Origin: Candidatus Moraniibacteriota bacterium
GTDB taxonomy: Bacteria > Patescibacteriota > Minisyncoccia > Moranbacterales > UBA1568
NCBI GenBank assembly: GCA_016699385.1
Contig: CP064974.1
Span: forward strand, 532,466-596,465
Length of the DNA: 64,000 nucleotides
Direction of reading: 5' to 3'
Shown here: positions 46,923-57,436 of the stretch, one piece after another
Layout: every line of letters begins with the position of its first letter
How positions within the stretch are numbered: the stretch's first letter is position 1
The notes under the pieces: model-generated
Seen by the model: only the letters and a program-made list of their open reading frames with translations
Databases searched by the model: none
Told to the model about the DNA's origin: nothing
Translations under genes and position numbers: made by a program

Positions 46923-47157
46923 AGTTTCTCATACTAACCTATTCTTTCTTTTCGTCAAAATAAACCAAGATTCCGACAGAAATTATTGACAAAAACACAA
47001 ATTAGTACCATAATGCCCCCGCAAGGTAAGGAAAGTGCTGGTTATGATTCTTTGTATAGTTCACTGTCAAAATATATCTTAGAATCTCCAGTATCCTTCC
47101 CTGTTCGTTCAAAATTTTCTCAAGAAGTTTTCTCAAGAAAAAAGGGAGTACATACCA

Positions 47158-47813
47158 TGAATAACAGCGATTCCCTTCTACTTAAACAGAGAATTTTTCC
47201 AAGTATAGAGAAACAAGTTCTCACTTGGAATGAGCTGTTTCCAGGGATCGGAGATGTCGATAAACACACCTTGGAACGTCCTATCCCTGAGAAAACAATT
47301 CAGGTATGTTTTCCAAGAATGAGCTTTCTAGCTGAGGGTGGAGCGCAAATCTACGCCATCCTACGCATCAAGGAGGTGCTCGCTAAGCTTTGCAGAGAAA
47401 GTGGAATGCCCCTCCATGATGACTGCGATTTTTTCCATCCAGATACCCTCAAGAAAGAGGAAGGAAACATCAAAGACTTCGAGCGTCCTTTCGATTATCA
47501 AGGAAAGTCAAACCTCATTGTGACGTCTGTACAGTTCTGGTTGCTTCATCAAGAAGGCAATCGATTTCCAACCAATCAAATCCCAATGAGTGTTTCTCAT
47601 GCATCAGCACTCCTCTGCATAGTGCAAGGAGGGCCAAGGAAGCTTTGGGAAGGATGCAACCAAGACCATTGGTTTAGTTGTCCAGGAAGCCCCGCAGGCA
47701 GTGGCGGTATTCCCTGTTTCGATTTTTTCCAGGAGGCACTATGCCTGACACCTCTCGGCTATCTAGAAAAACCAAGAGAGATAGGCGGCGCCGCATCTCT
47801 CTTCATTAATTGA
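47158..47813 (+). CDS. hypothetical protein
   Basis: ATG at 47158 with the SD aaaagggag. The ORF-track start at 46986 is the TTG of the -35 box of a TTGACA-17-CATAAT promoter (46986-47014). No motif recognised. Confidence 0.5.
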
Positions 47814-47979
47814 AGGGAAAAATCATCAGAGAGACTATCTATCAAGATGGTCTCTTTTTCTTTATTTAACTTCATAGCCCCTTCCTCTTGATGGATGTGA
47901 AAAAGAGCTTCCTAATTGCGCAGCGAGAACAATGCGAAGAAATTACCGCTATCAAAATTCCCCTCCGATGCAGAGTTTC

Positions 47980-48285
47980 TCACTTCTTCAGACAAGGTGC
48001 GAAATCGCAGTAAGGAGCAACACGCTTCACTATCGAGCCGTCTGAACACACTTTCATATCCTTCGCACAACTGCCAGTTAGTGACGACTGAGTATCAAGC
48101 TGGTCCGGAGCGCTATTTACGCGATTTTCGATATGAAACGCTGGTGAATATTGCGCCATATCAATAATGTTCTGTGCGGTACGCAAGGTAAGGAGCGCAA
48201 CCAACACACTCAAGAGAAGAATAAGTACTATCGAAAGTGTACTCGAAATCCTCTGCCCCAATTCGAAGGAAATAGTAATGCGCGT
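47980..48285 (-). CDS. small membrane-anchored protein with 4-Cys C-terminal domain
   Basis: MTRITISF... with TM LSIVLILLLSVLVALLTL, then SCAKDMKVCSDGS...YCDFAPC. It lies directly downstream of lexA on the same strand. Confidence 0.45.
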   Translation of the reverse strand, partial: TRITISFELGQRISSTLSIVLILLLSVLVALLTLRTAQNIIDMAQYSPAFHIENRVNSAPDQLDTQSSLTGSCAKDMKVCSDGSIVKRVAPYCDFAPCLKK

Positions 48286-48348
48286 CATGAAAACAGTATA
48301 CCATGTTTCATGATGAAAACATGCGTTCTGTATATTCAATAACGCGTA

Positions 48349-48999
48349 TCAATTCAATTTGAGTACGTCAATTACCTTCCCATTCAAGACAAAATTGTCA
48401 TCTTCAGTGAGAAATATCGCCTTGTGTTGTGAATCGGTCGATTCGGGGAGAAGAACAATATTCTTTCCATCAACTGTCCGAAATGTTTTGACTGTCGCCA
48501 ATCCGTCAATCACGACGAGCACCCTATCCCCCGTCTTGTATTCCTTTGTATCGCCGTTGACCAAGACAAAGTCACCATCTTCAATTGTCTTCCCTTCTAT
48601 TTGTGCTTTGTTCATACTTGTCCCCGATATCTGTACCGCAAAAACATTTTTGCTACTCTTCACAATCTTGCGTGACACCTTGAGATACCCTTCGACATAT
48701 TCATCCGCAAAGGAAAGTGCCATTCCTGCATTCGCTGTTCCGAGTATGGGAATATTTACAAACATATTTCCGGTGAGTTCCTTGAGCTTTATACCGCGAT
48801 CCTCATGCGTCCGCTCGATATATCCCTTATCCTCAAGTTCATTGAGATAGACGAAAAAACTTCGCAAACTTTTGAGACGAAGTCCCTGGCGACCCGACTC
48901 TTCTTGAAGCTCGCGCACGGTTGGCATCTTCCCTCTTTCGGAGAAAAACTGTCGAATCGCTTGCAAAACTATTTTCTGCTTCGGCGTGAGAATATTCAT
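48349..48999 (-). CDS. lexA: LexA repressor (S24 peptidase)
   Basis: N-terminal winged HTH, ISGTSM (catalytic Ser), and the Lys-containing VKTFRTVDG C-terminal domain. A TATAAT -10 sits at 49017-49022. Confidence 0.85.
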   Translation of the reverse strand: MNILTPKQKIVLQAIRQFFSERGKMPTVRELQEESGRQGLRLKSLRSFFVYLNELEDKGYIERTHEDRGIKLKELTGNMFVNIPILGTANAGMALSFADEYVEGYLKVSRKIVKSSKNVFAVQISGTSMNKAQIEGKTIEDGDFVLVNGDTKEYKTGDRVLVVIDGLATVKTFRTVDGKNIVLLPESTDSQHKAIFLTEDDNFVLNGKVIDVLKLN

Positions 49000-49139
49000 A
49001 CACTTTGTGTTTACTTATTATACATATACAAGTATACTCTCAAAAAGAATCCGGTCAAATAACGCCTCTATGAAGCATAAATGATAAACCAGTCCTCAGT
49101 ACACTTTCCGAAAACAGAACAGATTTTGAGATAGACTCA

Positions 49140-49173
49140 AAGCAAAACCCTCCTTGAATCTCCAAGGAGGGTT
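49140..49173 (-). terminator. intrinsic terminator (bidirectional hairpin) after the Fn3 surface protein gene
   Basis: CCCUCCUUG-6nt-CAAGGAGGG 9-bp stem followed by a U-rich tract on the minus sense. Confidence 0.5.
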
Positions 49174-49203
49174 TGCGATTTCGGCTTTCCGAAGAAGTAG
49201 AGG

Positions 49204-51387
49204 CTACTGCCAACTACTCATCATGATACCGATATCCCTCGTATTCACAACACCGTCACTATTCACATCCGACGGATTATTCGTCACACTCTGGAGCCAG
49301 ACAGACACCAGGGCAGTGAAGTCCGAGAGAGAATACGTTTTGGCAAGCGTCTTCACAGATACACCACTCGTCTGCGCTGATGAATTGCCATCGGCATCAT
49401 AGGCAAGCACCGTGTATGAGTAGCTTGTATTCTGCGTGAGACCCGTGTCGGAATACGTCGTACCTGTCGTCACATCCGCAATCTGTGTTCCATTACGGAA
49501 GACCTTATAGCCCGTCACTGCGATATTGTCAGTCGAAGCAGTCCAGGAGAGATCAATAGCCGTCATGGAAACAGCTGTACCAGAGAGTCCAGTTGGAACA
49601 GAAGGTGCACTCGTATCACTGAGCGTCGTCACTGAGACAGGAGCTGTCTGTGCCGATGGATTCCCTGCGGCATCATAGGCAAGCACACTGTAAGAATACG
49701 CGGTTGATTTCGTCAGACCCGTATCAGAGTAGGACACCGCAGAGGTCGTCCCAACCTGTACTCCGTCACGGAACACTCGATAGCCAGCTACACCAACATT
49801 GTCAGTCGAAGCAGTCCATGAGAGATCGACAGTCGTCATAGACGTCGCTGTGCCAGAGAGTCCCGTTGGGACAGAGGGGGCAGATGTGTCGGAATTGGTC
49901 GCCGACGAAACAGCTGATGATTGAGACGATTCATTTTCTCGTGCATCAAGCGCCGTCACTCGGTATCGATAGGTTGTACTCGTAGTCAAACCTGTATCAT
50001 TGTAGGTGGTCCCGCTTGGCGTTCCTATTTGGGTATAGTTCGAACAACCCGATCCGGTACAACGGTAGACCTTGTATCCTGTCACCGCAATATTGTCAGT
50101 CGAAGCGGTCCAAGAAAGATTAATCTGGGAAATAGATACTGCTGTTGCGGAAACTCCCGTTGGCGTGGTCGGCGCCACTGTGTCTTGCCCGGTCGTTGCC
50201 GACACCTGTGTCCCTTGTGCCGAAGCATTTCCTGCCGCATCAACCGCCACAATGCGATACCGATACGTCGTCTCAGCAGTCAATCCCGTATCGCCATAGG
50301 TCGTCCCGCTTGGCGTCCCTATTTGGGTATAATTCGAACAGCTCGCTCCAGTACAACGGTAGACCTGATACTCCGTCACAGCAACATCATCTGTCGATGC
50401 CGTCCAAGCAAGATCCACTTTATCCATGCCGTTTGCTATCGCTGAGAGATCCGTAGGAACAGAGGGTGCCGTTGTATCAGCCAGTGTCGTCGCTGAAACC
50501 TGGCTCGATTGAGCCGACTCAACCCCACTCCCATTCACGCCACTCACGCGATAAGCATAGGCGGTAAGAGGAGCGAGTCCGGTATCTGTATACGATGGCG
50601 TCGCGCTCGTTCCAACTTGCGTGCCATTTCGATAGATTTTATAACTCACAATCGTTGAATTCGCCGAGGCCGCCGTCCAGGTGAGACCAACAGTTGTCGC
50701 AGTCTTCATCGGCGCGGCAAGTCCTGCAGGAACTTCGAGAGATGCTGTCACAGTGGTATTCGTCACACTATTCAAAATATCTGTTCCAAGCTTATCATCA
50801 AAAATGACGTCCGAATCGGTATAATTCCCATAGGCAACATACTGAATGGTGATGTTTGCCGAAGAAGGAACAATTGGCTGCAATGCACGGAATTGAAGCG
50901 TCGCAATCTTTCCTGATGCCGTATTCACCCCTGGCGTTGGCTTTGCAAGTGTAATAATTGCCTTGCCATTTGCCGCATCCTGCACGACAATCTCACACGG
51001 CTTGCTATTGTAGACACACGTATTCCCCGAAGAAAACGCGGAGGTCGACGTATCTATGTTGAGAAGCGAGAAATTTGCCGGGTTATACTCCACTACCGCC
51101 TTTACTGCCACCACATTATTGTTGTGCGTATCAACACTCATATCCACATTGAACGGCGTCCCTACGGTCGCCGAAGTCGATGATGGAGACAAGTGCAAAT
51201 CCGCCACTTCCCCCGATGTCTTTGCTGCGATAAACCACACAAGCACAATGAGTGCAACCGCCAGGAACACAATCGTAAACACGGTCATGCGATGCTCCGG
51301 TGCAGAGAGAAAACGAAAAAACCGGGAGAGCACACCTGCTCTTCCTGGCGAAACGCCACCTCCTTGCCCATAGGAAACTTCATCCAT
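49204..51387 (-). CDS. surface protein: cohesin-like domain, 5 fibronectin type III repeats, C-terminal dockerin-like repeat
   Basis: N-terminal TM/signal. Cohesin-like block VVAVKAVVEYNPANFSLLNID...GKIATLQFRAL. Five repeats of about 90 aa, each WTASTDN..Y.V(Y/F)R...Y.DTGLT..T.Y.Y.V.A.D..GN.S. C-terminal SDVNSDGVVNTRDIGIMMSSW (D-x-N-x-D-G-x-V-N dockerin repeat). Confidence 0.75.
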   Translation of the reverse strand: MDEVSYGQGGGVSPGRAGVLSRFFRFLSAPEHRMTVFTIVFLAVALIVLVWFIAAKTSGEVADLHLSPSSTSATVGTPFNVDMSVDTHNNNVVAVKAVVEYNPANFSLLNIDTSTSAFSSGNTCVYNSKPCEIVVQDAANGKAIITLAKPTPGVNTASGKIATLQFRALQPIVPSSANITIQYVAYGNYTDSDVIFDDKLGTDILNSVTNTTVTASLEVPAGLAAPMKTATTVGLTWTAASANSTIVSYKIYRNGTQVGTSATPSYTDTGLAPLTAYAYRVSGVNGSGVESAQSSQVSATTLADTTAPSVPTDLSAIANGMDKVDLAWTASTDDVAVTEYQVYRCTGASCSNYTQIGTPSGTTYGDTGLTAETTYRYRIVAVDAAGNASAQGTQVSATTGQDTVAPTTPTGVSATAVSISQINLSWTASTDNIAVTGYKVYRCTGSGCSNYTQIGTPSGTTYNDTGLTTSTTYRYRVTALDARENESSQSSAVSSATNSDTSAPSVPTGLSGTATSMTTVDLSWTASTDNVGVAGYRVFRDGVQVGTTSAVSYSDTGLTKSTAYSYSVLAYDAAGNPSAQTAPVSVTTLSDTSAPSVPTGLSGTAVSMTAIDLSWTASTDNIAVTGYKVFRNGTQIADVTTGTTYSDTGLTQNTSYSYTVLAYDADGNSSAQTSGVSVKTLAKTYSLSDFTALVSVWLQSVTNNPSDVNSDGVVNTRDIGIMMSSWQ
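49400..50710. repeat. nucleotide-level tandem repeats (~270 nt) encoding Fn3 modules
   Basis: attgtcagtcgaagcagtcca recurs at about 49531, 49798 and 50089. cgcttggcgt(c/t)cctatttgggtata(g/a)ttcgaaca recurs at about 50010 and 50300. The blocks are near-identical. Confidence 0.8.
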
Positions 51388-51515
51388 AAGACACTTTTAA
51401 TATTATTATTCCTACTTGTTTTAAAAATATTTGCCTCTTCGACAGGAGACATCCACAGTCAGTATACCATATCGAGAGATATCAGAAAATCATTGTCAAC
51501 CCCCGAACAATAATG

Positions 51516-51878
51516 CTAGCGTGATCGATCAAGATACTGCATGAGTTCAATCAAGAGGTACCCTATAAATACGTATACAAAAAGCGCCAGAAGCGTCGAA
51601 AAATCAAATACGAACCCAACCACGTGCCCGCTCCGAAACACATCCGCAAACGGTGCAAGAAGCGGCGCGCTCGTCTCAGAAACAAATCGCACAAACGACG
51701 CCTCCGGATTCGCCCCAAAGAGCCGCAGGATAAAATGCATCCCGAGAAAAAATTCTATCGCGCCAAGCAACAACATGAGGAAGCTTTTAACAATACCCGG
51801 GAGAGACATAGGTACAGAAGTTTGAATTATTCTTTCTACAAATATACCACAAAACACCGCATTCCCTTGTATCGACAC
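51516..51878 (-). CDS. YggT family membrane protein
   Basis: FILRLFGANPEASFVRFVSETSAPLLAPFADVF fits the YggT/Ycf19 consensus. Two TM helices. Confidence 0.7.
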   Translation of the reverse strand: MSIQGNAVFCGIFVERIIQTSVPMSLPGIVKSFLMLLLGAIEFFLGMHFILRLFGANPEASFVRFVSETSAPLLAPFADVFRSGHVVGFVFDFSTLLALFVYVFIGYLLIELMQYLDRSR

Positions 51879-51939
51879 ATCGCTTCTTCCAGAGCCCGGT
51901 CAGAGCACCTTCGTGGAGAAAAAGTAAGTGTCTCTAGAA

Positions 51940-51981
51940 TAGAAATGAAAAGGCTGGAAAATACTCAAAAGTATCCCCAGC
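51940..51981 (-). terminator. putative intrinsic terminator closing the RT-containing transcription unit
   Basis: Minus-sense GGCUGGGGAUACU-loop-AGUAUUUUCCAGCC compound hairpin followed by UUUUCAUUUCU, about 90 nt downstream of the 52070 stop. Confidence 0.45.
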
Positions 51982-52069
51982 CTTGTTGTTTTGGCACCCA
52001 CTTATTCAAGTGGCCGTTTTAGGCAATTCCCAGATATGCGCGCGTTTTTCGCGAGCATGTCTTTTTGAA

Positions 52070-52537
52070 TCAGTCATAGCTCGCCCAAAATACCTTACAG
52101 CGATACTCCCATTCCTCCTGATCGCAGTGAATCTCTTCGGCTGTCATGCCCTGTTCTCTTACTCGAAATACGAGCTCTTTCTTCGTAGAGTTCCGCGCCA
52201 TATCGCCATAGAATTCATACACCAATGCTCGCATCTCTTCGATAAAGCCCTCCGGAAGAGGGATACAGCGTTCCGCTTCGTGGGTAATCTTCCGAAGAAG
52301 AGTGAAGCGATACATATTGTTCACGTTGAGTTCCTTCTTCAAATCCGCTTTACCCACCAAGTCGTATTTGCGAAGGAGGTCATCAAACGATTCAGAGAAA
52401 TCTTTGCTCCTTGGTTCCTCCCTGCCTTTAGAAGAAAATAAGAGGCAAACAAGAATCATAACTCCCAGAACGACTCCTGTACTAAAAAGGGTAAGTACGC
52501 CTGATACCATACCTGCTGTCAAAGAACTTTCATTCAT
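52070..52537 (-). CDS. small single-TM protein, candidate retron effector
   Basis: ATG at 52537 with SD ggaggt at 8-nt spacing; the ORF-track start at 52546 is a TTG. TM GVLTLFSTGVVLGVMILVCLLF, then a cytoplasmic domain of about 110 aa. The next gene on the same strand after the RT, 124 nt downstream. Confidence 0.5.
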   Translation of the reverse strand: MNESSLTAGMVSGVLTLFSTGVVLGVMILVCLLFSSKGREEPRSKDFSESFDDLLRKYDLVGKADLKKELNVNNMYRFTLLRKITHEAERCIPLPEGFIEEMRALVYEFYGDMARNSTKKELVFRVREQGMTAEEIHCDQEEWEYRCKVFWASYD

Positions 52538-52669
52538 GATGACCAACCTCCATATACGTTGCGATCCTCTTCTTTATGGTCTTTCCAAAAGAGCCTGTCA
52601 AGCTTGCCGTATTTCTTCCAAAGCCCTGACACAGTACCTTCGTGGAGAAGGAAGTCAAATGTCCATTTG

Positions 52670-53560
52670 CTAAAGAAATCTCTCCATGGTCACATTGTAA
52701 AAATTTTCCAACATCAGACCAGCCTCCCTATTGATGCTTTTTACAAAGCTAACCTTCCCTTGTACGCTAAGACGGTGTTCTGGCACAAAGTAACACAAGC
52801 CTTCCTCGATTTCACATTTTACGCTCTCAATGAAGAAGTCACTCAAATCAATTTTATCATTTACAACCAAGCCAGTAACATGTTGCGTTTCTGTACGATG
52901 AGCGATATGTTTCTTCTCCATGTTGAGCAAAAACCCTTCATGCCGAATAATTCCATCAACCATCCCTTTTCGGTAAGCACCTTCCACTTCCCTTCCGCCA
53001 GAAATAGTTATATCATCGAAGAAACGTGTATACCCAGCATTGATCCCCTTGCAAAGATCCCACAGTTTTGTGTCCAAATCCAACGCAACTACATTCGAAA
53101 GAAAGGGGCTAGTAGGCGCCCCTTGCGGAAGCTGATTTTCATATGTAGCTATTCTGACAATCCAACCCAGAGACTTCTGCGAGATATTAAGCCTTCTTCT
53201 TAAAGCTTTCAGCACTCTTGTGTTATGAATACTGGGGAAAAAGTCTTTTATGTCATAATTCAAAACAAACTCTTTGCCAACATGGGGCTTGGCATTTGTA
53301 ACAATTGAACGTCTGTCAACACCACCGTGAACGCACGGTAACAAAGAAATGCTTTTCTTCAGAAAAGTAAGAATTTTCTTTTGCAACAACCGCAAGTCTT
53401 TTCTTGGAATATTCAAAATCCTCTCGCTCATCCCTCCACTGCTTTTTTTCTTTGGAATTTTAATCTCGATATATAACCGTTTAATATTCGAGTAGAAAAA
53501 ACTTGCTTGTTTTTCGTCCAAGCCTAAGTTAAGCAAAAATTGTCTGTGTTCCGGATACAT
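52670..53560 (-). CDS. retron-type reverse transcriptase
   Basis: 296 aa. Block similarity to the Ec86 RT: IPKKKSSGGMSERILNIP (motif 0), NAKPHVGKEFVLNYDIKDFFPSI vs Ec86 NATPHIGANFILNIDLEDFFPSL, LPQGAPTSPFLSNV (motif 4), YTRFFDDITIS (YxDD-type, here FFDD), and TQHVTGLVVN (the retron VTG motif). No maturase/X or endonuclease domain. Confidence 0.85.
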   Translation of the reverse strand: MYPEHRQFLLNLGLDEKQASFFYSNIKRLYIEIKIPKKKSSGGMSERILNIPRKDLRLLQKKILTFLKKSISLLPCVHGGVDRRSIVTNAKPHVGKEFVLNYDIKDFFPSIHNTRVLKALRRRLNISQKSLGWIVRIATYENQLPQGAPTSPFLSNVVALDLDTKLWDLCKGINAGYTRFFDDITISGGREVEGAYRKGMVDGIIRHEGFLLNMEKKHIAHRTETQHVTGLVVNDKIDLSDFFIESVKCEIEEGLCYFVPEHRLSVQGKVSFVKSINREAGLMLENFYNVTMERFL

Positions 53561-53756
53561 GCGTTAAAAAGAAAACTGTCGCACAAGCAACAGTTTTAAG
53601 ATAGTAGGAAAATAAGTTCCGCAGAAACTCAAAAAGAGTTCTAACCTCCTGAACAATGTCTTTCAAAGACACCTGAAATGAGAATCGACACTTTCTTTCT
53701 TTGCTTTTCCTTGTAACTTTTGTGTACGTTTCTATTTCCGTTTTCAGTGTTGCCAT
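53529..53756 (-). CDS. small ORF (75 aa) with perfect 14-nt Shine-Dalgarno, upstream of and overlapping RT start
   Basis: ATG at 53756, preceded at 2-nt spacing by CUAGAAAGGAGGUG, which is fully complementary to the 16S 3' tail CACCUCCUUUCUAG. Encodes MATLKTEIETYTKVTRKSKERKCRF... It may instead be non-coding msr/msd sequence. Confidence 0.35.
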   Translation of the reverse strand: MATLKTEIETYTKVTRKSKERKCRFSFQVSLKDIVQEVRTLFEFLRNLFSYYLKTVACATVFFLTHVSGTQTIFA

Positions 53757-53810
53757 ACGCCACCTCCTTTCTAGTAAAATGCGGCGCGGAACTAAACCTA
53801 AACTTCTATC
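53600..53810 (-). ncRNA. candidate retron msr-msd region (tentative a1/a2 inverted repeats)
   Basis: Minus-sense a1 at 53810-53786 (GAUAGAAGUUUAGGUUUAGUUCCGC, followed by G) and a2 at 53622-53600 (GCGGAACUUAUUUUCCUACUAUC) can pair over 8+4+5 bp about 165 nt apart. Internal small hairpins are present. An AU stem plus U-tract (53572-53597) sits just before the RT ATG. The statistical support is weak. Confidence 0.25.
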
Positions 53811-53927
53811 AGGAGGAGAAATATACTCTTTCATCTTTAAAATCCGCAACCAACATTCTCTCAAAAAAAGAAAACTGGAATATTTTTAGATTTCAGACTA
53901 AAAATAAGTATACACCCATCAAGAAGG

Positions 53928-53955
53928 AAAAAAGGGGTTATCTTTAAAACAACCC
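53928..53955 (-). terminator. intrinsic terminator about 150 nt downstream of 16S rRNA
   Basis: Minus-sense GGGUUGUUU-UAA-AGAUAACCC stem followed by CUUUUUU. Confidence 0.5.
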
Positions 53956-53971
53956 ATAGAAAGGAGAAAGG

Positions 53972-54004
53972 TTGCTTTTGCAATCCTCTGCGGTCAATCC
54001 AACG
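53972..54004 (-). promoter_or_regulatory. 16S trailer half of leader-trailer processing stem (RNase III-type)
   Basis: Trailer UUGGAUUGACCGCAGAGGAUUGCAA pairs with leader UUGCAAUUUUUUGCGGUCAAUCCAA (plus 56666-56692): 14 bp, a 4-nt internal loop, then 7 bp. Confidence 0.6.
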
Positions 54005-54241
54005 TCTCAAGATGCTTTGGTATCTCTTTGGCGAACCAAAGAAATAACGACCATATGTGTGTCATTGTCTGTCTTGCGACAAACAACTTGTTCACCATTA
54101 CTCCCTAGAAAGGAGGTGATTCATCCACAGCTTCCGCTACGGATGCCTTGTTACGACTTCACCCTTATTACCAACCCCACCGTCGTCCCCGATATAAAAC
54201 GGGGCCTTCTGGTATTGCCGGCTCTCTTGGTGTGACGGGCG

Positions 54242-55123
54242 ATTATCTTCGTAAAACTCCGAATTGATGTTCCCATCGTGCCTGCGGATTTCCCGCACAC
54301 GACGAGCTCTAATGCATCGTTTGCTTAAGTGCGTAGATACTACGCAATCCTTCATCTGTGAAATGGAGATTCTTGCGAATCATTTCGAAGATGACACAAA
54401 ACGTTTCAAAGTCACTTTTCTTTGAGCGTAACCTCAAAGCATTTCTTTTGAAGAATGGAATAATAACACGTTCCAGATGTTCTCTATTGGACACTTCATA
54501 GCGATAACATTGCTGATGATTGGCACGTCTATCTTTTTGAAAATACACATTGCCACATCCGAAATAGTCTTTCAGTTCATCGAGGACTTCTTTGTCTCGC
54601 TCGATCAACTTGAGAAAAAATCTCGGCTCAACTTTCGTCCGTCGCTTGACGCGCTTGTCCGAATCGGGATTTTTCACATATACTGTGAAGCTTCCCTCTC
54701 CATCCACAAGACCAACGATATATTCTGGTGTTATCTTTTCCATATGCATTGGAGTGAACCCTTCGTCCTGATAGAGATACCAGAAGTTACTATGATTCAG
54801 CTGACTTCTTACGCCGCGTAAGTTCCATTATTCAATGCTATTGTGATACAACATTGAAACAGCGTAAGATCTCCCGGGGTCATATATCTTTCTCTTCCTG
54901 ACATTCTGAAAACGCTTTGTATTGTATCTTCCCTCTGCTCACCACCTATCCAAAGGTCGATACCGTTTTCCGCCTTTCGACGGATAATCAGACTGCCATT
55001 TGCTTCCGAATCCTTCGCCATTTCCCTCGCGAGAAACGACTATTCTTCAGCTACGCCCCAGTTGACGAATCGGGGGGAGAGATTTGAACTCTCTAGAAAT
55101 ATATACTGCCCGGCGCTTTTATT
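54242..55123 (-). mobile_element. intron in 16S rRNA (probable group I) carrying LAGLIDADG homing endonuclease ORF
   Basis: Exon 1 ends CTTGTACTCAC (plus 55124-55134) and exon 2 resumes CGCCCGTCACACC (plus up to 54241). Joining them restores the universal CTTGTACACACCGCCCGTCACACC with a single A to T difference. The intron is 882 nt. Confidence 0.7.
54309..54749 (-). CDS. LAGLIDADG homing endonuclease (intron-encoded)
   Basis: YIVGLVDGEGSF is the LAGLIDADG motif. 146 aa, single-motif type, entirely inside the 16S intron. Confidence 0.85.
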   Translation of the reverse strand: MHMEKITPEYIVGLVDGEGSFTVYVKNPDSDKRVKRRTKVEPRFFLKLIERDKEVLDELKDYFGCGNVYFQKDRRANHQQCYRYEVSNREHLERVIIPFFKRNALRLRSKKSDFETFCVIFEMIRKNLHFTDEGLRSIYALKQTMH

Positions 55124-55189
55124 GTGAGTACAAGATCCGAGAACGTATTCACCGTGACTTGGCTGATTCACGATTACTAGTGATTCCGG

Positions 55190-55228
<39 letters not shown>

Positions 55229-56765
55229 GCCGGTTTTTTGGGATTAGCTCCGTCTCGCGACTTGGCAACCCTTTATACCGGCCATTGTAGCACGTGTGTC
55301 GCCCAGGGTGTCAGAGGGCCATGCTGATCTGACGTCATCCCCTCCTTCCTCCCCGCACCCTTTTCCCGATTATTTTCGGTAAACAGCAACAAAGAAATAC
55401 TGCCAAAGGCAACGTCTCTTCATTCTGCTCAGAAAAAAGGTGCGGGGCGGTCTCGCGTGATACGTGTAACACGCGACAGGGGTTGCGCTCGTTTCCCGAC
55501 TTAACGGAACATCTTACGACACGAGCTGACGACGACCATGCAGCACCTGGTCTAGCGGCCTCGAAGGACTTCTTATTTCTAAGATCTCCAGCTAGATTTC
55601 AAACCCTGGTGAGGTTCCTCGGTTATCGTCGAATTAAACCACATGCTCCACCACTTGTGCGGATCCCCGTCTATTCCTTTGAGTTTTAAGCTTGCGCTCG
55701 TACTTCCCAGGCGGCACACTTAACGCGTTAGCTACGGCACGGAAGGGGTCGATTCCTCCCATACCTAGTGTGCATCGTTTAGGGCGTGGACTACTGGGGT
55801 ATCTAATCCCATTCGCTCCCCACGCTTTCGTGGCTCAGTGTCAGATCGGTGCCAACCAGCTGCCTTCGCCTTTGGTGTTCTTCACGATATCAACGCATTT
55901 CACTACTACACCGTGAATTCCACTGGTCTCTCACCGCCTCAAGTCGTGCCGTTTCAAATGCAGTTCTTCGATTGAGTCGAAGGATTTGACATCTGACTAA
56001 CACGACCACCTACCCACCCTTTACGCCCAATAAATCCGGATAACGCTTGAGGTCTCTGTATTACCGCTACTGCTGGCACAGAGTTAGTAACCTCTTATTC
56101 TCCAGGTACCGTCATCGAAATTCTTCCCTGAAAAAAGTAGTTTACGACCCGAGGGCCTTCATCCTACACGCGGCATCGCTCGTTCAGGCTTTCGCCCATT
56201 GACGAATATTCTCGACTGCAGCCTCCCGTAGGAGTTTGGGCAGTGTCTCAGTCCCAATGTTGGGGGCCATGCTCTCACACCCCCTACCCGTCAGAGCCTT
56301 GGTAGGCTTTTACCCCACCAACTAGCTGATAGGACGCAGGCTGCTCCTCAAGCGATAAATCTTTACTCCGTAGAGCACATCGTGTATTAGCTTGTCTTTC
56401 GACAAATTATTCACGACTTGAGGGAACATTCCTACGTATTACTAACCCGTTTGCCGTGGGTCTAAACCCACTCGACTTGCATGCCTTATCCATGCCGCCA
56501 GCGTTCATCCTGAGCTAGGATCAAACTCTCAATAAAGATGATATTCCGAGAGCATCCGGTAAACCGAACTCCACCACTCATCTTATAATGGCAGATAAAC
56601 TCTCGAGAAGTTGCTTCCCTTCCCCTTGCGAAGATAAAGAAGACTTAAATAGATCCATGTAACTATTGGATTGACCGCAAAAAATTGCAATCATACTTTC
56701 GCAAATTGTTAAGGGGCTCTTGGCGATAAAAAAGAAGGCGGAAAGCTTTCTTCCTTCGCATGTGC

Positions 56766-56795
56766 AGTATAGAGGAACAAAAAGACTTCTGTCAA
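56766..56795 (-). promoter_or_regulatory. 16S rRNA promoter (TTGACA-18-TATACT)
   Basis: Minus-sense TTGACA (56790-56795), 18-nt spacer, TATACT (56766-56771), about 230 nt upstream of the mature 16S 5' end. Confidence 0.55.
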
Positions 56796-56887
56796 GCGTC
56801 CGACCCATTCCATGCTTTTTCCTCTATCGGACAGGTGTAATACCCTGCCGGAAAAGAGAGGAATGTGACTAGTACAAGCCAAAATCC

Positions 56888-57436
56888 CTATCTTCGGCGC
56901 TTATTGACGAAGAGGAGAAAGACAAGTGGCGCCGCCATCCAAACAAGACGCGCCCATGAGTCAGAAAAATAGCCATACACCGTCGGAGAGAGAAACCGCA
57001 AAGCAAATGATCTCGACACCAAGGAAAGTGCCATACTCATCGCAAGACCCGTCCCCAAGCACCCCATCACGAGCACTCGCGAGAAAAACGTCGATGTCGG
57101 ATTGGAGATATGAATATCGAGAATGTAGTCTCCCACCATAACCAAGAAAGCAAGAAGTACGACAAAGATAATAGCTCTTCCCTCTGGCGCAAAAGCAATC
57201 CACGATGCTGGAACAGTCAATACAAGAGCAAGCGCCACATAGGAAAACACGACGACACTGAGGAGTCGCGTGCGCCCCAACACAAATGATAACGCGAGAC
57301 TTCCCCCGATAAAGAGAAGGAGAAATGAAAGGTCTCCCGCAAACTTCCCCGGCACAAAGGAAAAAAAGGAGGTCAGGACATTCATATGATTCATCGAAAA
57401 AACATCGAATTTTGAGTACACACTCAAAGCGTACAC
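56888..57436 (-). CDS. hypothetical polytopic membrane protein
   Basis: Five to six hydrophobic helices. No motif recognised. Confidence 0.5.
   Translation of the reverse strand: MYALSVYSKFDVFSMNHMNVLTSFFSFVPGKFAGDLSFLLLFIGGSLALSFVLGRTRLLSVVVFSYVALALVLTVPASWIAFAPEGRAIIFVVLLAFLVMVGDYILDIHISNPTSTFFSRVLVMGCLGTGLAMSMALSLVSRSFALRFLSPTVYGYFSDSWARLVWMAAPLVFLLFVNKRRR

What the first reader, a model, noticed from the sequence alone, without database searches (positions are those of the whole stretch)
51940..53960. Retron-type reverse transcriptase module immediately downstream of the 16S rRNA gene
The ORF at 52670..53560 is an unmistakable retron-family RT. Several of its blocks align with the Ec86 RT: NAKPHVGKEFVLNYDIKDFFPSI, LPQGAPTSPFLSNV, YTRFFDDITIS, and the retron-diagnostic VTG block QHVTGLVVN. 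It is 296 aa with no maturase or endonuclease domain, which excludes a group II intron.

The RT sits inside a transcription unit that begins after a terminator following the 16S gene. A 124-nt gap then separates it from a small single-TM protein (52070..52537) with its own SD, and a terminator closes the unit before yggT.

For comparison, known retron effector families include NDT fusions, ATPase/HNH, TIR, cold-shock, 2TM, SLATT and protease types. A 155-aa bitopic protein with a ~110-aa cytoplasmic domain that I do not recognise, together with a 75-aa upstream ORF, would be an unusual combination. The apparent CPR-like host also makes the presence of a retron worth noting. The motif C variant FFDD in place of YADD is atypical.

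This could be an undescribed retron type, or a domesticated or degenerate one.
Basis: partly seen in the sequence, partly recalled or inferred. Interest (0 to 1): 0.85.

Follow-up and report, generated by a model that had tools for sequence, protein, structure and literature searches.

The report
Retron cassette behind the 16S gene
A real, intact retron-type reverse transcriptase sits just behind the 16S rRNA gene of a tiny CPR bacterium as a 1.3-kb swappable cassette with a folded leader RNA and a small helical protein; it belongs to no described retron type, and the membrane protein proposed as its partner is only a neighbour.

Summary
The RT ORF (53560..52670, minus strand) is real and intact. 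It matches retron RT models at 1e-66, against 1e-12 for group II. It has the NAxxH and VTG motifs, and dN/dS is about 0.15.

A near-identical relative (L177) delimits the unit. Its flanks are collinear with the window, but it carries a CBASS system where the window has 53978..52660. The cassette is therefore leader + small ORF + RT only.

The 155-aa membrane protein occurs without any RT in relatives. It is a resident flanking gene, not an effector.

Three features are conserved across the RT clade (39-100% identity):
- a ~200-nt leader closed by a helix between a copy of the 16S 3' end (CTCCTTTCTA) and a 13-nt Shine-Dalgarno sequence;
- a 44-79-aa helical ORF (dN/dS 0.11) overlapping or abutting the RT start codon;
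- a hairpin plus U-run just before the RT ATG.

Nearly all clade members lie directly after the 16S processing stem. One locus has flanking direct repeats and two carry integrases. The neighbouring genes are defence-type.

Best reading: an unclassified retron lineage sitting as mobile defence cargo in a 16S-flank hotspot. The msDNA template and the effector are inferred, not shown. This is a new variant of a known kind, of moderate-to-high interest.

The parts
52660..53978 (-). The whole cassette: leader RNA + small ORF + RT. It is the variable segment relative to a near-identical relative.
   Evidence: L177 is 98.9% identical to window 55200..53979 and collinear again from 52659 downwards, but carries a terminator plus CBASS in between. 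The left edge coincides with the last base of the 16S processing-stem inverted repeat.
53957..53966 (-). CTCCTTTCTA, an exact copy of the last 10 nt of the 16S rRNA (an 'anti-SD mimic'). It is the 5' strand of the leader's closing helix and the candidate retron a1.
   Evidence: A related copy (7-12 nt, variant sequence) is present in the leaders of every locus read that has enough upstream DNA (win, L004-6, L008, L012, L013, L015, L016, L019, L181, L182). It pairs with the SD in the MFE fold of all 9 leaders folded and in the RNAalifold consensus.
53935..53955 (-). Hairpin P1 (GGGTTGTTTTAAAGATAACCC), starting with a G 1-3 nt after the mimic (4 nt in L012). It is a candidate msr hairpin and candidate position of the branching G. 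In the window it is followed by a U-run.
   Evidence: The hairpin is present in all loci with different stem sequences. The U-run is absent in L006, L008, L012 and L013, so termination is not its conserved role.
53774..53934 (-). Variable middle of the leader, the candidate msd/template region. It includes the subclade-conserved GTTCCGCGCC (53792..53783).
   Evidence: About 100 nt are deleted here in L004/L005, and identity is only 0.04-0.68 per 50-nt bin against 0.86-0.96 on either side. No alignable internal structure was found.
53761..53773 (-). TAGAAAGGAGGTG, a 13-nt perfect complement of the 16S 3' end. It is the Shine-Dalgarno of the small ORF, the 3' strand of the closing helix and the candidate a2.
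   Evidence: It is the longest anti-SD complement in the 64-kb window; the next longest is 10 nt. It is conserved across the clade with covarying variants: GGGGG with CCC in L008/L012, and AAGGGAGGTG with CACCTTCCTT in L019.
53529..53756 (-). Small ORF: 75 aa here, with a conserved core of 62 aa ending at 53571. It is a predicted single long helix and overlaps the RT start by 32 nt.
   Evidence: An ORF of 44-79 aa with a conserved SD+ATG is present in all clade loci. dN/dS is 0.11, and substitutions by codon position are 5/4/14. AF2 gives one helix at pLDDT 73.6. No family match was found.
53572..53597 (-). Hairpin plus U-run (AAAACTGTTGC-TTGT-GCGACAGTTTT) ending 11 nt before the RT ATG. It resembles a terminator but lies inside the small ORF.
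   Evidence: It was found by the terminator scan. It is conserved in all clade loci with compensatory changes (CTGTTGC/GCGACAG versus CTGCCGC/GCGGCAG). The same arrangement occurs in more distant CPR retron-RT loci.
52670..53560 (-). Retron-type reverse transcriptase, 296 aa, with no Shine-Dalgarno of its own.
54106..56536 (-). 16S rRNA gene, including the 882-nt insertion at about 55123..54242. It forms the left flank of the cassette site.
   Evidence: Rfam SSU, 1301 bits. The 3' exon was read. blastn against the intron-less L008 16S defines the insertion. The rrn promoter-like site TTGACA-18-TATACT lies at 56795..56766.
53978..54105 (-). 16S 3' trailer, with the 3' strand of the processing stem at 54002..53978. 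It is native to the host, not part of the cassette.
   Evidence: It forms a 25-nt, 88% complementary inverted repeat with 56666..56690 upstream of the 16S. It is present in the cassette-less L177, where a terminator follows it.
52070..52537 (-). 155-aa protein with one TM helix. It is a resident neighbour, not part of the retron.
   Evidence: The AF2 model is low-confidence: pLDDT 58, a TM helix plus an all-alpha domain.

Best explanation
The window carries a 1.3-kb self-contained retron-family cassette (53978..52660, minus strand). It is inserted directly after the 16S rRNA processing stem, at a site that holds other anti-phage systems in close relatives.

The cassette has three parts:
1. A ~200-nt structured leader. 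Its ends pair: a copy of the 16S 3' terminus pairs with the very long Shine-Dalgarno of the next gene.
2. A small helical protein of about 62 aa.
3. A retron-type RT that has no ribosome-binding site of its own, so its translation is coupled to that of the small ORF.

Shown:
- the RT family assignment;
- the cassette limits;
- purifying selection on both proteins;
- conservation and covariation of the closing helix and of the hairpin before the RT;
- clade-wide linkage to the 16S flank;
- exclusion of the 155-aa protein.

Inferred:
- The leader is the retron ncRNA. The closing helix would be a1/a2, a G at the foot of hairpin P1 would be the 2'-OH primer, and the variable middle would be the template for msDNA.
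- The window shows no promoter between the rrn promoter and the cassette, and no rRNA terminator in the position where cassette-less alleles have one. In this genome the RNA is therefore probably made as the tail of the pre-16S transcript and released by processing-stem cleavage.
- The small protein is the effector or an RT co-factor. It may be membrane-active, because homologous positions in other CPR retron loci encode clearly hydrophobic peptides.
- The system acts as abortive-infection-type phage defence, and moves between genomes by recombination anchored on the conserved 16S 3' end.
For: RT family:
- Retron models score 1e-66, against 1e-12 for group II.
- All 10 named retron RTs in the PDB list match, led by Ec86.
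- NAxxH and VTG are invariant in the clade. These are the defining motifs per Mestre 2020 (PMC7736814).
- dN/dS is 0.14-0.21.

Cassette limits:
- The L177/L178 comparison defines them.

Leader helix:
- It closes the MFE fold in 9 of 9 leaders.
- It is the only helix in the RNAalifold consensus, with one doubly compensated pair plus G-U changes.
- A third variant of the pair is kept in L019, away from any 16S.
- The 226-nt window leader folds with z = -2.3.
- Leader length varies in the middle, as msd stems do.

Small ORF:
- It is present in all clade loci.
- dN/dS is 0.11.
- It overlaps or abuts the RT ATG, which lacks an SD.
- Hydrophobic small ORFs sit in the same position in L020, L025, L027 and L040.

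Defence and mobility:
- The same slot holds CBASS in L177 (cyclase, 507 bits).
- The RT's neighbours in other loci hit PDC-S07, PDC-S23, SoFic and a mad2-like MTase.
- L006 has ~190-nt direct repeats of the 16S end plus trailer flanking a 4.7-kb segment.
- L013 carries the cassette with the last ~15 nt of the 16S plus the trailer at a non-rRNA site, next to an integrase.
- None of about 160 more distant retron-RT loci has a 16S nearby.

Co-transcription:
- The only promoter-like site on the strand is upstream of the 16S.
- Cassette-less alleles have a terminator right after the processing stem, and the window does not.
Against: - No msDNA, branching G or template can be demonstrated in silico.
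- The leader interior has no long, stable msd-like stem and no alignable conserved structure.
- Complementarity between the mimic and the SD is partly automatic, since one copies and the other complements the 16S tail. Covariation rests on only two or three independent events, and the helix is only about 6 bp in L182.
- An SD-sequestering helix is also what a plain translational riboregulator looks like.
- The small protein has no detectable family. In the window's own subclade it is amphipathic rather than clearly transmembrane.
- No phage-defence test exists for any member.
- The window itself has no integrase and no flanking direct repeat.
- Some loci have promoter-like -10 boxes just upstream of the leader (L008, L012, L016), so co-transcription with rRNA is not general.
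Confidence: 0.6

Rival explanations
1. Stand-alone RT with a purely regulatory leader. On this reading, the mimic/SD helix is only a translational riboregulator. The small ORF is a leader peptide whose translation melts the hairpin/U-run and allows read-through and re-initiation at the RT. The RT's template and function lie elsewhere or are unknown, possibly a domesticated non-defence role tied to rRNA.
For: - SD sequestration geometry.
- A terminator-like hairpin lies inside the 3' end of the small ORF, with the RT ATG 0-25 nt after it and no SD.
- Stand-alone (msr-msd)-RT cassettes without effectors exist in retron clades 2 and 11 (PMC7736814).
- Linkage to the 16S persists over 76-84% 16S identity.
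Against: - The small ORF is under stronger protein-level constraint than the RT (dN/dS 0.11 against about 0.15), which is not expected of a mere leader peptide.
- The cassette is dispensable and is replaced by CBASS in a 98.9%-identical background.
- The cassette also exists away from the 16S (L019, L013).
- Retron RTs studied so far use an adjacent ncRNA, and the leader is the only conserved non-coding part of the cassette.
Confidence: 0.2
2. The RT module is primarily a component of an integrative mobile element that uses the 16S 3' end and trailer as its attachment site. It would serve the element (maintenance, exclusion, or use of the strong rRNA read-through), and the window copy would be a stranded remnant.
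For: - Tyrosine integrases lie right after the RT in L013 and L015.
- L013 carries a 16S-tail remnant plus trailer at a non-rRNA site.
- L006 has ~190-nt direct repeats flanking the cassette plus cargo.
- The cargo downstream of the RT is variable.
Against: - Most loci, including the window, have no integrase within 4-5 kb and no second att copy.
- Between L013 and L015 the integrase DNA is 69% identical while the cassette is 90% identical, so they have different histories.
- In the window the polymorphic unit is exactly leader + small ORF + RT.
- This reading concerns how the cassette moves, and is compatible with the best explanation of what it does.
Confidence: 0.1
3. One reading: a tripartite retron whose effector is the downstream 155-aa bitopic protein, co-transcribed with the RT.
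For: It lies on the same strand, 124 nt downstream, with a terminator after it. 2TM and other membrane effectors are known in retrons (own knowledge, Ec48 type IV).
Against: - Homologues occur without an RT, behind CBASS (L177/178) or beside enolase (L179/180). In L005 the homologue is two genes away from the RT.
- It is absent from all other clade loci.
- A recombination breakpoint and a separate conserved upstream region lie between the RT and this gene.
- It has no PADLOC, Pfam or NCBIfam hit.
Confidence: 0.03
4. The RT acts on the ribosome. The 13-nt SD-like element would anneal to the free 3' end of 16S rRNA, and the RT would extend that 3'-OH using the leader as template. This would tag or inactivate ribosomes or pre-16S RNA. 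It would be a retron-derived enzyme with an rRNA primer.
For: - A perfect 13-nt complement of the 16S terminus is conserved across the clade and is far longer than any other SD in the window.
- There is constant physical linkage to the 16S gene.
Against: - The L008/L012 SD variant (GGGGG) keeps Watson-Crick pairing with the cis mimic but only G-U pairing with the 16S. The L019 variant likewise follows the mimic.
- Retron RTs prime from an internal 2'-OH.
- The element functions as the SD of a selected ORF.
Confidence: 0.03
5. It is not a retron but a DGR, a group II intron RT or an Abi/DRT-type RT.
For: About 80% of the RTs reported in CPR bacteria are DGR RTs (PMC8632793). A weak group-II D1-D4 Rfam hit lies 1.2 kb upstream.
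Against: - There is no TR/VR repeat within 10 kb.
- It has the QGxxxSP-type motif rather than the DGR type (motif distinction from own knowledge).
- Group II RT scores 1e-12 against 1e-66 for retron models, there is no maturase domain, and no ribozyme lies at the RT.
- The Rfam hit lies inside the separate 16S insertion.
- DRT and Abi models score 1e-10 or worse.
Confidence: 0.02

Closest known systems
Retron RTs with solved structures (Ec86/Eco1 type II-A; also Kva2, Ec67, Ec83, Ec78)
   Same: - Same RT fold family by sequence (E = 3e-29 to Ec86).
- NAxxH and VTG regions are present.
- Size is about 300 aa with no extra domains.
- A structured RNA lies immediately upstream.
   Different: - Only about 30% identity.
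- No NDT, ATPase or other known effector gene is present.
- A small ORF sits between the leader and the RT.
- The RT is translationally coupled.
- The ncRNA has not been demonstrated.
Retron type XI and the protease-less 'type XI-like' lineages (Mestre 2020, PMC7736814; Toro 2026, bioRxiv 10.64898/2026.05.14.725207)
   Same: - It is the best-scoring PADLOC model for the window RT (RT-Protease_XI, 224 bits, RT part only).
- The protease-less XI-like lineages are likewise stand-alone RTs with lineage-specific accessory genes and de novo predicted upstream ncRNAs.
   Different: - The score is far below that of a true XI relative (375 bits) and is tied with III-A, XII, VI and II-A.
- The described XI-like lineages are in Bacteroidota and Bacillota. 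That paper does not mention Patescibacteria, the 16S or a small upstream ORF.
Retron type IV (Ec48, 2TM effector) and other membrane-effector retrons
   Same: The possible logic is the same: an RT/ncRNA guarding a small membrane-active protein. Small ORFs in the same position in other CPR retron loci are clearly hydrophobic.
   Different: - The protein is a 44-79-aa single helix, placed upstream and overlapping the RT. It is not a 2TM protein placed downstream.
- No sequence similarity was detected (one search gives no PADLOC hit).
- The function has not been tested.
Stand-alone (msr-msd)-RT cassettes of retron clades 2 and 11 (Mestre 2020)
   Same: It is a minimal cassette without a recognisable effector domain.
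   Different: The RT lineage is different, and here a conserved small protein is part of the cassette.
Genomic islands and defence hotspots at the 3' ends of tRNA/tmRNA genes
   Same: - A conserved RNA gene serves as the left anchor.
- The RNA gene's 3' end is duplicated at the far end of the insert (L006).
- Integrases are present in some copies.
- Different defence systems alternate at one site: retron versus CBASS.
   Different: The anchor is the 16S rRNA 3' end and trailer, for which the paper searches found no report. The cassette reads in the rRNA direction with no intervening terminator.

Membership tests
Retron (RT component) | The RT belongs to the retron clade rather than to the group II, DGR, Abi/UG or CRISPR-associated RTs. 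| tested here: met
   The best 25 of 71 PADLOC matches are all retron RT models (1e-66). NCBIfam retron models score 1e-50 to 1e-53, against 1e-12 for group II and 1e-10 to 1e-11 for DRT. All 10 named retron RTs in the PDB list match. No tree with reference sequences was built.
Retron (RT component) | Region X NAxxH motif and region Y VTG triplet (Mestre 2020). | tested here: met
   NAKPH and QHVTG are present. N89, A90, H93, T229 and G230 are invariant in the 11-member clade alignment.
Retron (ncRNA component) | An adjacent msr-msd ncRNA whose ends pair (a1/a2 inverted repeats). | tested here: inconclusive
   A ~200-nt leader with a conserved, covarying 9-12-bp closing helix and a hairpin right after its 5' strand is present in clade loci. 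However, the helix is also an anti-SD/SD pair, there is no long msd stem, and no Rfam family matches.
Retron (ncRNA component) | A conserved branching G next to a1 that primes cDNA synthesis through its 2'-OH. | tested here: inconclusive
   A G begins hairpin P1 1-3 nt after the mimic in every locus (4 nt in L012). Its role cannot be tested in silico.
Retron (product) | Production of msDNA (branched RNA-DNA). | not testable with these tools
   This needs expression and gel or sequencing assays.
Retron (tripartite defence system) | An effector gene that co-occurs and co-evolves with the RT. | tested here: inconclusive
   The downstream 155-aa gene fails this test. The upstream small ORF co-occurs in all clade members and is under purifying selection, but it has no known effector domain.
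Any of retron types I-XIII (PADLOC/Mestre models) | A high-scoring, unambiguous match to one type-specific RT model, plus that type's accessory gene. | tested here: not met
   Clade members score 210-235 bits on XI, III-A, XII, VI and II-A alike. True members score 310-470 bits on their own type. The NCBIfam retron_St85 score of 181 is below the cutoff of 235. No accessory model hits were found.
Diversity-generating retroelement | A template repeat / variable repeat pair near the RT, and a DGR-type RT. | tested here: not met
   No such repeats occur in 47000..57000. The RT matches retron models.
Group II intron | RT with a maturase (X) domain inside a ribozyme with domains I-VI. | tested here: not met
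   The protein is 296 aa with no extra domain. TIGR04416 scores 48 bits against a cutoff of 300. No intron RNA match lies at the RT.
Integrative element at an RNA-gene 3' end | An integrase, plus direct repeats of the target's 3' end flanking the insert. | tested here: inconclusive
   The feature is met in relatives: L006 has the repeats, and L013/L015 have integrases. It is not met in the window, which has no second copy in 64 kb and no integrase nearby.

The most novel reading that the evidence does not exclude
This would be a new retron type with three unusual properties.
- Its a1/a2 stem is built from a copy of the 16S rRNA 3' terminus and the Shine-Dalgarno of its own small-protein/RT operon.
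- In genomes like this one, it is transcribed as the 3' tail of the pre-16S rRNA and released by processing-stem cleavage.
- Retron RNA supply, msDNA synthesis and translation of a small helical toxin-like peptide would therefore be wired directly to rRNA transcription and to competition between the cis mimic and ribosomal anti-SD. That would give a defence switch that reads the state of ribosome synthesis, which phages commonly shut off.

A more extreme variant, much less likely, is that the RT extends the 16S 3' end itself.
Probability: 0.15. Interest if true: 0.85.

Novelty: new variant of a known kind. Interest (0 to 1): 0.62.

Why it matters
- Among the RTs so far reported in CPR/Patescibacteria, about 80% are DGR enzymes. 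A conserved, selected retron lineage in these minimal-genome bacteria adds a defence-type retroelement to that group.
- It would also extend retron architecture to a very small cassette of RNA, a ~60-aa helical protein and an RT. That size could interest retron-based DNA-production tools.
- The anti-SD-copy/SD closing helix and the constant position behind the 16S processing stem suggest a link between a retron and rRNA transcription or translation that has not been described. They also show that the 16S 3' flank can act as a recombination anchor and defence hotspot, with retron and CBASS alternating at it.
- The result corrects an attractive but wrong effector assignment.

Tried and rejected
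1. The 155-aa protein as effector was rejected by comparative context. Its AF2 model was too poor (pLDDT 58) for fold searching.
2. The small upstream "ORF" as a mis-called msr/msd was rejected. Third-position bias and dN/dS of 0.11 show it is coding. Its synonymous rate is about half that of the RT, so some RNA-level constraint is not excluded.
3. P1 plus U-run as the conserved rRNA terminator was rejected. The U-run is missing in most clade members.
4. DGR and group II readings were rejected.
5. The 35-nt repeat at 52647..52613 and 51918..51884 as a general cassette-junction site was rejected. It occurs only upstream of the 155-aa family and of yggT.
6. The genome contigs and metagenome-contig scans with the clade alignment mostly returned generic retron RTs (33-40% identity).
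7. RNAalifold on the full leaders recovered only the closing helix.
9. Literature searches for retrons in Patescibacteria/CPR, retrons at rRNA operons and islands at the 16S 3' end found nothing relevant.
10. No attempt was made to place the RT in a reference phylogeny, because no labelled reference set was available.

Full report
**1. The observation**

The ORF at 53560..52670 (minus strand, 296 aa) is present. Its database matches are as follows.
- Pfam RVT_1: 8e-16.
- PADLOC: the best 25 of 71 matches are all retron RT models. The best is RT-Protease_XI at 1.2e-66, matching the RT part only. Close behind are RT_III-A, RT-TIR_XII and RT_II-A.
- NCBIfam: retron models score 1e-50 to 1e-53. 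Group II RT/maturase scores 1e-12, DRT2/3 score 1e-10 to 1e-11, and AbiA scores 0.01.
- PDB: 13 chains match at E<=1e-5, all RTs. Ten are named retron RTs, with Ec86 best at 3e-29.

The two motifs that Mestre et al. 2020 use to define retron RTs are NAxxH and VTG (PMC7736814). Both are present, as NAKPH and QHVTG, and both are invariant in the clade alignment.

FFDD is a Y-to-F change shared only with the two closest relatives. The clade consensus is RYFDD. The peptide R[YF]FDDITI recurs in hundreds of retron-like RTs.

The gene is under purifying selection, with dN/dS of 0.14-0.21 against relatives of 75-77% identity. The protein is identical to an NCBI entry from a Candidatus Moraniibacteriota MAG, on a 1.11-Mb contig.

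**2. The 16S gene**

Rfam places the 16S at 56536..55077. Reading the sequence shows that the conserved 3' domain (…CGCCCGTCACACC…GGATGAATCACCTCCTTTCTA) resumes at 54241 and ends at 54106. Comparison with an intron-less relative (L008) shows an 882-nt insertion at about 55123..54242. This insertion holds the LAGLIDADG ORF at 54749..54309.

The RT therefore starts 545 nt after the true 16S 3' end. The 16S trailer contains the 3' strand of the processing stem. Window 54002..53978 is 88% complementary over 25 nt to 56666..56690, upstream of the 16S.

**3. What the unit is**

L177/L178 come from a very close relative, 98.9% identical over the 16S insertion, 3' exon and trailer. They are collinear with the window down to 53979 and again from 52659 onwards, covering the 155-aa gene and yggT. 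Between these points they carry a terminator, a CD-NTase (PADLOC cyclase, 507 bits) and a 174-aa protein, which is a CBASS-like operon.

The polymorphic segment in the window is therefore 53978..52660, 1319 nt. It starts at the last base of the processing stem and ends 10 nt after the RT stop codon. It contains only a non-coding leader, a small ORF and the RT.

**4. The 155-aa protein is not a partner**

- It has just five homologues, all 66-91% identical.
- These lie behind CBASS (L177/178), next to enolase/PfkB without an RT (L179/180), or two genes away from the RT (L005).
- The gene immediately after the RT differs in every subclade:

| Locus | Gene(s) after the RT |
|---|---|
| L001 | UCP014422 |
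| L005 | UCP032817-like + methyltransferase |
| L006 | unrelated 168-aa protein (BLASTP E = 1.4 to the 155-aa protein) |
| L008 | NUDIX + RhuM/Fic |
| L011 | nothing |
| L013, L015 | tyrosine integrase |
| L016 | Fic |

- Its AF2 model is poor, at pLDDT 58: a TM helix plus an all-alpha domain.

**5. What is conserved instead**

Eleven RT clusters at 39-100% identity form the clade, and L019 adds a twelfth. In every locus with enough upstream DNA, the same order is seen:

a. A copy of the 16S 3' terminus. In the window this is CTCCTTTCTA at 53966..53957.

b. One to three nucleotides (four in L012), then a G-initiated hairpin. In the window this is 53955..53935.

c. A variable stretch of 100-190 nt.

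d. TAGAAAGGAGGTG (53773..53761), followed 4-9 nt later by an ATG.

e. An ORF of 44-79 aa. In the window it runs 53756..53529, with a conserved core of 62 aa.

f. A GC-rich hairpin plus U-run inside the end of that ORF. In the window this is 53597..53572.

g. The RT ATG, 0-25 nt further on, with no Shine-Dalgarno of its own.

*The closing helix.*
- The 13-nt element (d) is a perfect complement of the 16S tail. It is the longest such match in the 64-kb window; the next longest is 10 nt.
- Elements (a) and (d) pair in the minimum-free-energy fold of all nine leaders tested.
- They form the only helix in the RNAalifold consensus.
- The window leader folds with z = -2.3.
- Variants covary. L008/L012 have GGGGG with CCC. 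L019 has AAGGGAGGTG with CACCTTCCTT. These changes preserve pairing with the cis copy better than with the real 16S.
- In L182 the helix is only about 6 bp.

*The hairpin before the RT.* It keeps CTG..GC/GC..CAG with compensatory T-A to C-G changes.

*The small ORF.*
- It is coding. Window versus L004 differences fall 5/4/14 by codon position.
- dN/dS is 0.11. dS is 0.46, against 0.85 for the RT.
- AF2 predicts one long helix at pLDDT 73.6.
- It has no Pfam, PHROG or PADLOC match, and only two database clusters.
- More distant CPR retron-RT loci (L020, L024, L025, L027, L040, L071) also have a 59-83-aa ORF ending at a hairpin plus U-run just before the RT. Several of these are strongly hydrophobic.

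**6. Linkage to the 16S, and mobility**

- The cassette follows a 16S gene on the same strand in the window and in L001/4, L005, L006, L008-10, L011/12, L015, L016 and L182. L181 starts inside the trailer.
- The 16S genes concerned are only 76-84% identical to the window's.
- None of about 160 more distant retron-RT loci has a 16S nearby.
- There are two exceptions. L019 has a promoter-like site of its own and no rRNA. L013/L014 show homology with the 16S-linked L015 beginning exactly at the last ~15 nt of the 16S (AATCACCTCCTTTCTAGGGAG…) and running through trailer, leader, small ORF and RT, with a tyrosine integrase next.
- In L006, a ~190-nt direct repeat (16S tail plus trailer up to the processing stem) flanks 4.7 kb holding the cassette and two cargo genes. 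The distal copy is followed by a terminator.
- Cassette-less alleles (L177, and the distal copy in L006) have a terminator right after the processing stem. The window has none there, and the only promoter-like site on the strand is the rrn promoter at 56795..56766.
- Genes found next to the RT in other loci hit defence or defence-candidate models: PDC-S07, PDC-S23, SoFic and a mad2-like MTase.
- The window's wider flanks are housekeeping genes: fn3 protein, LexA, radical-SAM enzymes, PGK and MraY.

**7. Interpretation**

The simplest account of all this is a compact retron-family cassette that acts as exchangeable defence cargo in a hotspot anchored on the 16S 3' flank.

By homology, the RT should bind an adjacent structured RNA and prime from an internal G. 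The only conserved non-coding part of the cassette is the leader. Its geometry matches a retron ncRNA: a terminal helix, a G-initiated hairpin next to the 5' strand, and a length-variable middle.

The small protein is the only other product, and RT translation is coupled to it. It is therefore the best candidate for an effector or co-factor.

These last steps are inferences. The closing helix is also exactly what an SD-sequestering riboregulator looks like. No long msd stem is seen, and nothing can be said in silico about msDNA.

**8. Comparison with what is known**

- The RT meets the retron RT criteria.
- It does not belong to any PADLOC/Mestre type. Clade members score 210-235 bits on five types alike, while genuine members of III-A, XI and XIII among the database hits score 471, 375 and 310 bits on their own model.
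- Protease-less "type XI-like" lineages with de novo ncRNAs were recently described in Bacteroidota and Bacillota (bioRxiv 10.64898/2026.05.14.725207). That paper does not mention Patescibacteria, the 16S or a small upstream ORF.
- A review states that DGRs make up about 80% of CPR RTs (PMC8632793).
- Searches found no report of retrons at rRNA operons or of islands at the 16S 3' end.

I therefore rate it a new variant of a known kind. The RT family is known. The lineage, the cassette architecture, the anti-SD/SD helix and the 16S linkage appear to be undescribed.

**9. Verdict**

- Interest is 0.62.
- The most novel reading still open is a retron wired to rRNA transcription and ribosome status through its anti-SD/SD stem and its pre-16S co-transcription, at about 15% probability.

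Noticed in passing
window 55123..54242 (minus strand), inside the 16S gene: An 882-nt insertion near E. coli position ~1400 of the 16S carries a 146-aa LAGLIDADG homing endonuclease ORF (54749..54309). Because of it, Rfam ends the 16S at 55077 instead of 54106. The homologous insertions in L015 and L016 give above-threshold hits to Rfam group-II-D1D4-1 (36 and 40 bits); the window gives 21.8 bits at 54843..54758. The intron class was not determined.
   Followed up: partly
L177 1462..3501 and L178 (homologous to the window slot 53978..52660): A near-identical relative carries a CBASS-like operon (CD-NTase, 507 bits on a PADLOC cyclase model, plus a 174-aa protein with no match) exactly where the window has the retron cassette. 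The 16S 3' flank therefore behaves as a defence hotspot.
   Followed up: yes
L006 1082..~1270 and 5794..~5975: A ~190-nt direct repeat of the 16S last 15 nt plus trailer up to the processing stem flanks 4.7 kb (cassette + 168-aa + 743-aa CARDB protein). The distal copy is followed by a terminator. It looks like a Campbell-type or integrase-mediated insertion at the 16S 3' end.
   Followed up: partly
L013 3490..5839 and L014; L015 1700..4400: The same cassette, with a remnant of the last ~15 nt of the 16S plus the trailer, lies at a non-rRNA site and is followed by a tyrosine integrase. L015 has it at a 16S, with two integrases downstream. The L013 MAG is labelled Bathyarchaeia and the L015 MAG Anaerolineaceae, which may be binning errors or signs of mobility.
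   Followed up: partly
window 52647..52613 and 51918..51884 (minus strand): A 35-nt direct repeat (CTCCACGAAGGTnCTnTGnCnGGGCTnTGGAAGAA) lies upstream of the 155-aa gene and of yggT. It is also found upstream of the 155-aa homologues in L005 and L177-L180, and half of it remains after the RT in L001, where the downstream gene was swapped. It may be a shared 5' regulatory element or a recombination-prone junction.
   Followed up: partly
L020, L024, L025, L027, L040, L071 (about 250 nt before each RT start): More distant CPR retron-type RTs (33-37% identity) also have a 59-83-aa, often strongly hydrophobic ORF that ends at a GC-rich hairpin plus U-run just before the RT ATG. Several share a GGTCGATTATTA-like leader motif. 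A wider 'small ORF + RT' family in Patescibacteria seems to exist.
   Followed up: partly
window 53756..53571: The synonymous rate in the small ORF (dS 0.46) is about half that of the adjacent RT (0.85) against the same relatives. This hints at an additional RNA-level constraint on this coding stretch. The sample is small, at 62 codons.
   Followed up: no
window 54105..51400 and the whole window: No 23S rRNA, 5S rRNA or tRNA gene follows the 16S anywhere in the 64-kb window, so the 16S is unlinked from the rest of the rRNA operon.
   Followed up: no
window 49346..50470: Tandem repeats with a period of about 273-294 nt lie inside the 727-aa gene. They correspond to its five fibronectin type III domains and are ordinary domain repeats.
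   Followed up: yes
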